Positions 3,801 through 6,800 of a stretch of DNA of 64,000 nucleotides are shown piece after piece. The position numbers and the translations under genes were made by a program. This stretch comes from Eledone cirrhosa (lineage: Eukaryota). The notes under the pieces were generated by a model, which was not told where the DNA came from, searched no databases, and saw only the letters and a program-made list of their open reading frames with translations. The stretch's first letter is position 1. Each line of letters begins with the position of its first letter. The stretch covers positions 32,240,001 through 32,304,000 of the forward strand of contig OZ024754.1 in the NCBI GenBank assembly GCA_964016885.1, in the 5' to 3' direction.

Positions 3801-6800
3801 AAATAAACAAGAGATTGGTCTTAACTTCTAGTCTTATTAGAGATTAAGCGTTTTCTTTACCTTGTTGTAGTTAAGGATTCTTAATTACATGTGTAATAAG
3901 TTATGTGTTTAGAATTATAGCCTAGGGGGCCCACCTAGACCGACAGGAAAGACAGACCCCCCCCCCCCCCGTTAGTTACGCCACTGCTCGCCAACCATTC
4001 TTACCAAGCGTGAAGCTAATAACACTATGTACCATTGACTCCTGCGTTTGATTGTTTGTCACTTTGAACTATATATATATTAAAATAACCGATTAAAGTT
4101 TAAGCAAAGAATCGCTGCTTTCACCCTTAACGGGATCTTCTGAAATTGAGTTATATATTATTATTATTATCATTATTATTATTATTATTATATATATATA
4201 TATATATATATATATATATATAAAATAAAGTAAAATAAAAAGTCAAATGTTTAAAATTTAGCTTCGTTTATTACTGCTATATATATTTCGGTGACAGCCA
4301 TCTTTGGCTGTGACCTCTTCAGGCAGTCCGAATTGGTGTGGTATAGACAAGTACATATGTTGTTGAGGTGTATAATTTTGTCAATACTGAGGTGTTGGTA
4401 TACAACCAACATATACTCAAACTATATATATATATATATATATATATATATATATATATATATATATCCGGGAGCTTCCAACAGCAATGGTTGCATTCTT
4501 TAAGGGTATGTCAATATTTATTTATAAAACTGATCTATATTATATTTTATCTGATGAAAGCACACCATAATTTAACTTGGTGTCCTTGAAATATGTATAA
4601 TGAAATAAATATGGTTTTATAAATATAGTTTCCATTTGTTAATATCATATATATATATATATATATATATATATATATATATATATATATATATACATAT
4701 ATATATATATACATATATATATATATATATTAGAAAGAGTCAGGGCCTGATGCCTGAGTTCTTGTCGTTTCAACAGCAAGTTCTAGACTCTGAGTTTGGA
4801 ACTAGATGTTGAATGTTGAAACAGCAAGAGCTCAGCTGATGGGTCCCAACTCCTTCTAATATAGTTATACTCTACTATCCCAAGTATTGAGTACTCAGTT
4901 GAATAATTGTTTATACTTTTGGCACAAGTCCAGCAATTATCCCAGTACATTACTGGTGCTTTTATTTTATCAACCCTGTAAGGATGAAAGGCAAAGTTAA
5001 CCTCGGCGGGATTTGAACTCAGACCGTAAAGGGCTGTAACTCTATACTGCAAAACATGGCGTCCGACCATCTACCGATACTGCCAATCCATCGTCCTGGT
5101 CCAACTATTTAAAAACTAGTTCAATCCTGATATAAATATATACATAAATATATATACATATCTAATATGTATATATATATATATTTATATATATATATAT
5201 ATATATATATAGATGTATATATATATATATGTATCATCATCATCATCATTTTACGTCCACTTTTCCCTGCTTGCAAGGGTTGGACGGGTCCTATTCAGCA
5301 CATCATCTCTCCACTTGTCACGGTCCTTTGTCATCTCCTCGGTGAGTTTCAGCGATCTGAGGTTTGCTCTCACCACCTTCGCCCATATTTTTCGTGGTCT
5401 ACCTCTATTGCGTCTTCCTTCTACTGGGATTTCTTGGCACTTCTTTACCCAGCGGTCATCCTCCATCGCATCACATGTCCATACCATCTCAGCCTTCTCT
5501 CCTGCACACCACAACTTATCCCTCTTATACACAGTTTCTTTCTCAACTCGTCTATGCTTGGTCGTTCATGCACATTGACATTGCACATCCAACGGAGCAT
5601 GCTTGCTTCATTTCTCTCCAGCCGTCGCATATCCTCTGCAGTTGCTGCCCATGTCTCACTACCATGCAGCATCGCGCATCTCACACAGGCATCATATAAC
5701 CATCCTTTCGTATGCAGGGAAAAACCCTTCTTTGTCAACAGAGAAATTAGCTCCCTAAACTTCTTCCAACCCGTCCTTATTCTAGATACTATGGTCTTGG
5801 AACACCCCCTTCCATGCTAATCTTATCACCTAGGTACTGGAAGCTATCAACCACTTCTATAGAACCCACCTGCATTGGTAAAATGTGTCTATCACTGCGA
5901 TTACTACTGCCAACTTTCCCTGTACATCTACTGCATACTTAGTTTTCCCTACCTGTTAGTTTGCCTGCTCTCCCACTACATCTCTTGTGTACCCAAGATC
6001 TGTATTGCATACATTTTATGGAATTTATGCCAGTTCCTTTCCTACATATCGAACATGGTCATTTCCCTGATGGAATCAGAGCATTGTCCTCTTTTCTACT
6101 TATCAACACTTTTGTCTTAGCTATGTTCATTCTCAGTCCTCTTAATTCCAACTGCTGTTTCCATAGCCAGAATTTATTCTCTAGCTCCTCTACTGATTCT
6201 GCTATAAGAACCAGATCATTAGTATAGAGAGGACTATAATGAACAAGAGTGGGCTGAGGACCGAACCCTGATGTACACCTATTTGTATCTGGAATTCCTC
6301 ACTAAACTCCATTCCTACTCTCACTTTACTGACAGCACCCCTGTACATAGCTTGCCCTGTCCTCACAAGCCATTCCTCTACACCTAGTTTCCTTAGGGAC
6401 CACCAGATGACAGATCGGGGTACCCTATCAAAGGCCTTCTTTAGGTCAATATATATATATATATATATATATATATATATAAAATAATAATAGTAATAAT
6501 AAATGGAAAATATATCACTATAGCATCATATTTATTTCATTATATATATTTCTAGGATACTAATTTATAGTATGCTTTTATCAGATAAAATACAATATTT
6601 GATGTATAAGATAGTGACATACCCCCCAAAATAGACCTCATATGGTCAACTTAAAATAGGAATGCCTATTTTATATATATATATATATATATATATACAG
6701 AGAGAGAGAGAGAGAAAGAGTGGAAAATGAAAGACATTCCTTAGTACAGTAAGATATATTTGAATTAAGAGAAGAATGACTTCACTGGAGGTTGGTATTC

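What the first reader, a model, noticed from the sequence alone, without database searches (positions are those of the whole stretch)
4468..4650. Dispersed (TA)n-anchored repeat carrying a minimal hammerhead ribozyme with covarying helix II
Seen: an AT-rich ~180-290 bp family occurs six times (motifs at 4543-4607 +, 6533-6592 -, 17134-17197 -, 23225-23279 -, 23370-23435 +, 39465-39529 +), always near (TA)n. Each has helix I (TATTTTAT/ATRAAATA), CTGAYGA, a stem-loop, GAAA, a near-palindromic TATGTA and an AUA cleavage triplet. Helix II shows compensatory changes between copies (pair 2 A-T versus G-C, pair 6 C-G versus T-A, pair 9 C-G versus T-A). Established: Penelope-like elements and their non-autonomous derivatives carry minimal type I hammerheads with a palindromic helix III that cleave mainly as dimers. 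Inference: this is a ribozyme-bearing, microsatellite-associated mobile family that I do not recognise as described.
Basis: partly seen in the sequence, partly recalled or inferred. Interest (0 to 1): 0.8.

Follow-up and report, generated by a model that had tools for sequence, protein, structure and literature searches.

The report
Penelope-type hammerhead repeat in TA microsatellites
A short repeat that sits inside TA microsatellites carries a conserved hammerhead-ribozyme motif, predicted to cut RNA only in pairs, and was likely spread by a Penelope-like jumping gene, so it is a new example of an already described kind.

Summary
The repeat is real. All six copies lie at the stated coordinates, in five insertions, each bounded by (TA)n on both sides. 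Five of six keep the hammerhead core; 6533-6592 has G8A. The three compensatory helix II changes are there, but they come from about three lineages, so their statistical weight is modest. A seventh motif of the same build, in a different repeat (4273-4327, -), and public reads add support.

Copies differ at the 5' end, have two fixed 3' ends about 90 nt apart, and often have an inverted 5'-truncated partner. This is the published footprint of Penelope-like elements (PLEs). (TA)n-targeting, hammerhead-bearing PLEs (Hydra clade) are already described. No PLE coding sequence is in the window and no genome was held, so the parent element is unidentified and a short non-autonomous family remains possible.

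The motif is not strictly 'minimal'. It differs from the listed Hydra hammerheads in its AU-only helix III, AUA site and C-C mismatch in helix II. Side finding: one copy is fused to an inverted tRNA-like unit with the same end pattern. Cleavage was not tested.

The parts
4468..4646 (+). Copy 1 of the repeat (short 3' end), between two (TA)n arrays
4543..4607 (+). Type I hammerhead motif: helix I 4543-4550/4600-4607; core 4551-4557; helix II 4558-4567/4578-4587 with C-C mismatch 4561/4584; GAAA 4588-4591; palindromic helix III 4591-4598; predicted cut after A4599
4519..4625 (+). Predicted long extension of helix I that closes the hammerhead in one hairpin
   Evidence: z -3.8; the opposite strand also folds, z -4.4
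4629..4637 (+). 9-nt motif 10 nt before the short 3' end; all 8 window matches lie in the six copies or in two tRNA-like units
4423..4466 (.). (TA)n array 5' of copy 1, shared with the 5' end of the second hammerhead repeat
4648..4729 (.). (TA)n array 3' of copy 1 (likely target site)
4223..4422 (-). Second repeat type between (TA)n arrays, one copy in the window; hammerhead at 4273-4327 with the same build (3 bp, C-C mismatch, 7 bp in helix II; AU palindrome; AUA) but different stems
6482..6671 (-). Diverged copy 2 (G8A core change; motif 6533-6592); (TA)n on both sides
17094..17290 (-). Copy 3 (short 3' end; motif 17134-17197; reaches furthest 5')
17331..17391 (+). Inverted, 5'-truncated piece of the 3' tail, head-to-head with copy 3, ending in (TA)n
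23095..23305 (-). Copy 4 (long 3' end with ~90-nt tail; motif 23225-23279; loop II deleted)
23330..23476 (+). Copy 5 (short 3' end; motif 23370-23435), head-to-head with copy 4
39396..39660 (+). Copy 6 (long 3' end; motif 39465-39529; tail about 39570-39660)
39372..39395 (-). Inverted 24-nt piece of the repeat's 5' part, abutting copy 6
39124..39290 (-). tRNA-like unit (ARAGORN Ser-GGA 39210-39283) with its own tail ending in (TA)n; left arm of the same composite insertion
39286..39373 (+). 5'-truncated inverted copy of the tRNA-like unit, joined to the hammerhead piece with no (TA)n between

Best explanation
The six copies are a dispersed hammerhead-bearing repeat inserted in (TA)n arrays, and are likely the 5'-truncated 3' ends (pseudo-LTR region) of a (TA)n-targeting Penelope-like retroelement whose coding part is not in the window. 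Shown: six copies, core and stems, insertion inside (TA)n, variable 5' ends, two fixed 3' ends, inverted partners. Inferred from PLE literature: the element's GIY-YIG endonuclease nicks (TA)n DNA; its reverse transcriptase primes there and starts at one of two internal sites on the RNA, giving the short end or the tailed end; it usually stops early; a second priming on the other strand leaves the inverted partner. Predicted: the hammerhead cannot close helix III alone and would cut after AUA only as a weak dimer or with the element's protein. The template for insertion is likely uncut or religated RNA, since no copy begins or ends at the cut site.
For: Motif beyond chance. Structure kept across 6 copies: 98.8% of cells paired against 32-57% for slid controls; with the second family 11 of 21 pairs change on both sides. 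Public data: 6,580 contigs of run X1 and 30,604 reads of X11 lie on copy 6, with hits in organisms B and C. Of the 40 listed variant rows, 15 fall in the 65-nt motif and none on the 12 core positions (one-sided Fisher p 0.03). The listed variants in helices I and III only swap G.U and A-U. In X11 minus-strand mates the partner changes have similar frequencies (pair 2: 22% and 15%; pair 6: 50% and 54%). 5 of 5 insertions lie inside (TA)n; 3 of 5 have an inverted truncated partner; 2 of 6 copies carry a tail. 13 of the 15 joints listed are strand inversions. These match PLE structure in PMC8557442 and the two internal start sites and uncut template of PMC11167929. Helix III: hairpin +4.7 kcal/mol, duplex -2.2 to -3.2.
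Against: No GIY-YIG or PLE reverse transcriptase was found: 137 frames of 62 aa or more outside tandem arrays and 39 short frames in the repeats gave none. No direct partial tandem, the classic pseudo-LTR, is in the window. The tail is about 90 nt, against the published 30-40. Copies 1 and 6 begin within about 7 nt of each other, which could mark a real 5' end of a short element. 43 variant rows were not shown, variants are unphased, and in X1 contigs partner frequencies do not match (pair 2: 0.7% and 27%; pair 6: 2% and 29%). Core against the whole 255-nt stretch is not significant (p 0.13; G positions only p 0.54). In minimum-energy co-folds of two motifs no copy formed the helix III dimer. 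No Rfam hammerhead family matched at E up to 10.
Confidence: 0.5

Rival explanations
1. The repeat is a dedicated short non-coding family of about 270 nt, a dispersed retrozyme-like or SINE-like parasite. It borrows a (TA)n-targeting PLE enzyme in trans; somewhere in the genome tandem master copies would be cut to unit length by hammerhead dimers and perhaps circularised.
For: All copies are under 300 nt and non-coding; high abundance and several subfamilies; two copies start close together; a tRNA-like unit with the same end pattern is fused to copy 6 and recurs at 50045-50217 before (TA)n, so short non-coding RNAs do move this way here; retrozymes are argued to be PLE derivatives with many monomers (10.64898/2026.07.22.740005).
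Against: No head-to-tail tandem in the window. Copy 3 reaches further 5' than copy 1, whose junction shares TAT with the target, as a truncation would. One search lists no place near the 5' end where many molecules begin; some records run over the ends (188 of 6,580; 1,719 of 30,604).
Confidence: 0.38
2. The repeat is mobilised by a microsatellite-targeting non-LTR (LINE-type) element and not a PLE; the hammerhead is a passenger.
For: 3' anchoring in a simple repeat and 5' truncation or inversion are also LINE and SINE traits (recalled). A reverse-transcriptase fragment lies next to copy 2 (6205-6525).
Against: Two discrete 3' ends with an optional tail and a type I palindromic hammerhead near the 3' end are PLE hallmarks. 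The neighbouring fragment is cut off by the (TA)n array and recurs beside no other copy.
Confidence: 0.07
3. It is a DNA-level hairpin element (MITE-like) whose inverted repeats mimic RNA stems; the hammerhead core is chance.
For: Very AT-rich; both strands fold better than shuffles; core and helix I are about equally conserved among the six copies.
Against: The inverted repeats are internal, not terminal; ends are asymmetric and polar; the core, palindrome and cut site sit in exact register on one strand, and again in a second repeat with different stems.
Confidence: 0.04

Closest known systems
Hydra-clade Penelope-like elements (Craig et al. 2021, PMC8557442)
   Same: (TA)n insertion; type I hammerhead about 100-200 nt from the 3' end; palindromic stem III; the first helix II pair is not always G-C (File S2).
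   Different: All 26 Hydra rows of File S2 have stem III opening A-C and a GUH site; this family has an AU-only stem III, an AUA site and a C-C mismatch in helix II. No coding region was found. Twelve short motifs of the element and its second family gave no hit in a matching context in that supplement (line breaks can hide hits).
Metazoan PLE hammerheads, min-HHR and its palindromic-helix-III variants (Cervera and De la Pena 2014, PMC4209133)
   Same: Dispersed single motifs, long helix II, palindromic helix III, compensatory changes between subfamilies, inverted pairs 100-700 bp apart.
   Different: 6 nt between A15.1 and U16.1, no extra base at 9.1, A10.1-U11.1 (G-C in the second family), helix I of 8 bp plus a long predicted extension.
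Poseidon element PAc of Anolis (Frangieh et al. 2024, PMC11167929)
   Same: Two 3' ends that differ by an optional tail; AT-rich targets; no copies ending at the ribozyme cut site.
   Different: Tail about 90 nt, not 30-40; strict (TA)n target; no reading frame starts in the hammerhead here.
Animal non-LTR retrozymes (PMC7229834; preprint 10.64898/2026.07.22.740005)
   Same: Short, non-coding, AT-rich, type I hammerhead, presumed PLE-dependent; monomers are common.
   Different: Defined by head-to-tail tandems and circular RNAs; here only dispersed or head-to-head copies inside (TA)n; RNA not examined.
Naiad and Neptune PLEs (PMC8557442)
   Same: Microsatellite, often (TA)n, targeting; 5' truncation; inverted partner; tail.
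   Different: Naiads lack canonical hammerheads. Neptune hammerhead sequences were not seen in any paper I could read, so Neptune remains an open candidate parent.

Membership tests
Type I hammerhead ribozyme | CUGANGA, GAAA and UH core in register with three helices | tested here: met
   5 of 6 copies; copy 2 has G8A
Type I hammerhead ribozyme | Covariation of the helices | tested here: inconclusive
   3 pairs change on both sides within the family (43 of 500 shuffles), 11 of 21 with the second family; few lineages; read variants unphased
Type I hammerhead ribozyme | Match to an Rfam hammerhead family | tested here: not met
   no hammerhead family among 127 and 23 matches at E up to 10
Type I hammerhead ribozyme | Site-specific self-cleavage | not testable with these tools
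   no assay possible
min-HHR of metazoan PLEs | Palindromic 15.2-16.2 region and loop III | tested here: met
   fully self-complementary 8-mer in the 5 copies found by the descriptor and in copy 2
min-HHR of metazoan PLEs | No loop III, extra base between 9 and 10.1, G10.1-C11.1, helix I of 4-5 bp | tested here: not met
   6-nt insert, no extra base, A-U pair, 8-bp helix I (definition)
EN+ Penelope-like element | ORF with telomerase-like RT and GIY-YIG endonuclease | tested here: not met
   none in 137 + 39 frames of the window; the rest of the genome was not held
EN+ Penelope-like element | Direct partial tandem forming a pseudo-LTR | tested here: not met
   no direct tandem among 5 insertions
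EN+ Penelope-like element | 5' truncation with an inverted 5'-truncated partner | tested here: met
   3 of 5 insertions; 13 of 15 listed joints are inversions
EN+ Penelope-like element | Optional 3' tail (two 3' ends) | tested here: met
   4 short and 2 long ends, plus one inverted tail; about 90 nt rather than 30-40
Hydra clade | (TA)n insertion and a hammerhead near the 3' end | tested here: met
   5 of 5 insertions; motif starts about 105 or 195 nt before the 3' junction
Hydra clade | Clade-specific RT and endonuclease motifs | not testable with these tools
   no linked coding sequence
Non-LTR retrozyme | Head-to-tail tandem units, each with a hammerhead | tested here: not met
   none in the window; genome-wide not examined
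Non-LTR retrozyme | Unit-length linear and circular RNA | not testable with these tools
   no RNA run was available to lay
MITE | Terminal inverted repeats | tested here: not met
   ends are not complementary; inverted repeats are internal (by inspection)

The most novel reading that the evidence does not exclude
One (TA)n-targeting Penelope-type enzyme carries a set of short non-coding RNAs in trans. They share a 9-nt signal just before the first reverse-transcription start site and carry interchangeable processing modules, a dimer-dependent AUA hammerhead in some and a tRNA-like fold in others; the enzyme can stitch two different RNAs into one insertion, as at 39124-39660.
Probability: 0.15. 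Interest if true: 0.6.

Novelty: new member of a known kind. Interest (0 to 1): 0.3.

Why it matters
The kind is known, so the main value is annotation: an abundant repeat family that Rfam misses can be classed as Penelope-related. It also adds a hammerhead sub-type (AU-only helix III, AUA site, C-C mismatch kept in two families) to a group whose role in vivo is still open. Many natural variants make selection on the core testable. If the tRNA-like unit does share the enzyme and the 3' signal, the locus would point to the RNA element that PLE proteins recognise in trans.

Tried and rejected
No genome was held, so no genome-wide consensus or R-scape-type test was possible. Rfam gave no hammerhead hit. 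A pattern for this hammerhead build gave 7 viral and 74 metagenome loci; the 82 matches were scored and the best 25 printed, none with helix I over 2 bp, best score 10 of 16, so they are chance. Overall homology between the tRNA-like unit and the hammerhead unit was not shown (7-129 of 500 shuffles reach the scores), nor between the second family and the first (30-323 of 500). The idea that the cut RNA end, which finishes in UA repeats, primes on (TA)n was dropped: 0 of 6 copies start or end at the cut site, and one search lists no such boundary (380 loose ends not shown). The tails fold no better than shuffles (z 0.0 to -1.2). Earlier findings: no look-alike by sequence and none in this genome. 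Lunse et al. (RNA Biol, PLE hammerhead dimers) is not held; I saw only its citation. It and the supplements of PMC4209133, which I did not open, may already show this variant.

Full report
Observation. Copy 1 reads as a type I hammerhead: helix I of 8 bp, CUGAUGA, helix II of 3 bp, a C-C mismatch and 6 bp, GAAA, an 8-nt self-complementary helix III, and an AUA site with the predicted cut after A4599. A strict descriptor finds 6 loci in the window, against a mean of 0.08 in 100 shuffles. Five belong to this family. The sixth is a different repeat at 4223-4422 (-), right across the (TA)n array from copy 1. Copy 2 (6533-6592) is missed because of G8A. No Rfam hammerhead family matches.

Covariation. 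Across the six copies 98.8% of cells pair, against 32-57% when partners are slid. The number of doubly changed pairs is reached by 43 of 500 shuffles, and the copies fall into about three lineages, so this is modest evidence. Core and helix I are about equally conserved in the six. The second repeat is more telling. It shows no significant overall similarity, yet keeps the core, the 3-bp, C-C, stem layout, the AU palindrome and AUA; 11 of 21 pairs then change on both sides. Folding predicts a long extension of helix I; in copy 2 the distal stem has a different sequence that still pairs, though that fold is not better than shuffles (z -0.9).

Public reads. I laid 4 of the 13 listed runs on copy 6: 6,580 contigs in X1, 30,604 reads in X11, and 63 and 22 contigs in organisms B and C. 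The family is abundant; the tool's depth is not a copy number. Of 40 listed variant rows (43 more not shown), 15 lie in the motif and none on the 12 core positions (p 0.03; against the whole stretch p 0.13). In X1 and X5 all six G-to-A places are listed and no other G change occurs, so G5, G8 and G12 vary in under 3% there. The listed variants in helix I and helix III swap G.U for A-U or the reverse. Partner changes in helix II have similar frequencies in X11 minus-strand mates but not in X1 contigs, and they are unphased.

Anatomy of the insertions. All five insertions have (TA)n on both sides. The 3' end comes 10-19 nt (four copies) or 101 nt (two copies) after a 9-nt motif, so there are two 3' ends that differ by a tail of about 90 nt; loose ends show (TA)n at both. 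The 5' ends vary. Three insertions carry an inverted truncated partner: a tail piece beside copy 3, the head-to-head pair of copies 4 and 5, and a 24-nt piece beside copy 6. No copy starts or ends at the cut site. No GIY-YIG or PLE RT frame was found in 137 plus 39 translated frames. The window holds SRP54 exons, TPR exons, an RT fragment and mariner-like fragments, which points to a repeat-rich eukaryote; my impression of an octopus-like genome is recalled and untested.

Mechanism. PMC8557442 (sections 3, 6, 11, passages and parts of the supplement) lists 5' truncation, an inverted truncated partner and an optional tail as PLE traits, and describes Hydra elements with hammerheads and (TA)n targets. 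PMC11167929 (parts 1-2 of 4) shows that the tail reflects two internal start sites of reverse transcription, that uncut RNA is the main template, and that the ribozyme needs the protein. PMC4209133 (parts 1-2 of 4) reports dispersed single motifs, palindromic helix III and low activity even as dimers. The family fits all of this. Helix III costs +4.7 kcal/mol as a hairpin and gains -2.2 to -3.2 as a duplex, and co-folds did not favour the dimer, so any cleavage is predicted to be weak or protein-aided. Whether the copies are ends of a long element (0.5) or a short parasite (0.38) is open, because no genome was held.

Comparison. It works like a PLE 3' end, but membership is unproven because the defining ORF and the direct tandem were not found. 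It is not a strict min-HHR. It differs from all 26 Hydra rows of File S2, which open stem III with A-C and cut after GUH. It lacks the tandem layout of retrozymes (PMC7229834 passages; preprint 10.64898/2026.07.22.740005 parts 1-2 of 5; PMC7761336 and PMC6765202 passages). Eight paper searches showed no description of this family or of the C-C, AUA variant. PMC13282606 (passages) does not mention ribozymes, and PMC12602865 (passages) added nothing. Lunse et al., Dfam and Repbase were out of reach, so absence from print is not established.

Side finding. Copy 6 is the right arm of a composite between two (TA)n arrays. The left arm is a tRNA-like unit (Ser-GGA by ARAGORN) with its own tail, followed by a truncated inverted copy that joins the hammerhead piece with no (TA)n between. 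Both tRNA-like copies carry the same 9-nt motif near their 3' ends; all 8 window matches lie in these two unit types, with 1.6 expected by chance. Six of the eight are homologous copies and the motif was picked after the fact, so this is a lead only. A diverged tRNA-like unit at 50045-50217 also ends in (TA)n. Two unchecked earlier notes describe tRNA-bearing TA-targeted repeats in other genomes.

Verdict. A real and well-spotted feature, most likely a new family of a known kind. Interest 0.3.

Noticed in passing
window 4223-4422 (-): Second (TA)n-bounded repeat with an intact hammerhead of the same build but G10.1-C11.1 and different stems; single copy in the window.
   Followed up: partly
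window 39124-39395 and 50045-50217: tRNA-like (TA)n-anchored unit; one copy with an inverted truncated partner fused directly to hammerhead copy 6; anticodon differs between the two loci.
   Followed up: partly
window 3350-3395 (+): A short min-HHR-like motif (CUGAUGA, 4-bp helix II, GAAACGUC) with a poor helix I; likely a decayed PLE hammerhead of another lineage.
   Followed up: partly
window 18259-18303 (+): Weak model hit (24 bits) with the 3' half of the motif and a possible helix I but no CUGANGA; perhaps a decayed relative.
   Followed up: partly
window 38297-38432, 37506-37663, 1150-1227, 4720-4900: Another family whose ends abut (TA)n; at 38297-38432 two 43-nt copies face tail-to-tail around a (TA)n array. 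Not matched to the PMC8557442 supplement.
   Followed up: partly
window 39737-40016, 45807-45929, 46632-46747: Repeat with a long inverted arrangement directly after the (TA)n array that ends copy 6.
   Followed up: no
window 21343-21416 and 43625-43697 (-); 52675-52792 (+): Two tRNA-Val(TAC) genes and a 5S rRNA-like copy.
   Followed up: no
window 52124-59649 (+); 33620-34081 (-): Exons of an SRP54 gene and of a TPR-repeat gene.
   Followed up: no
window 6205-6525 (-); 8584-9321: Reverse-transcriptase fragment and an inverted pair of mariner-like transposase fragments.
   Followed up: no
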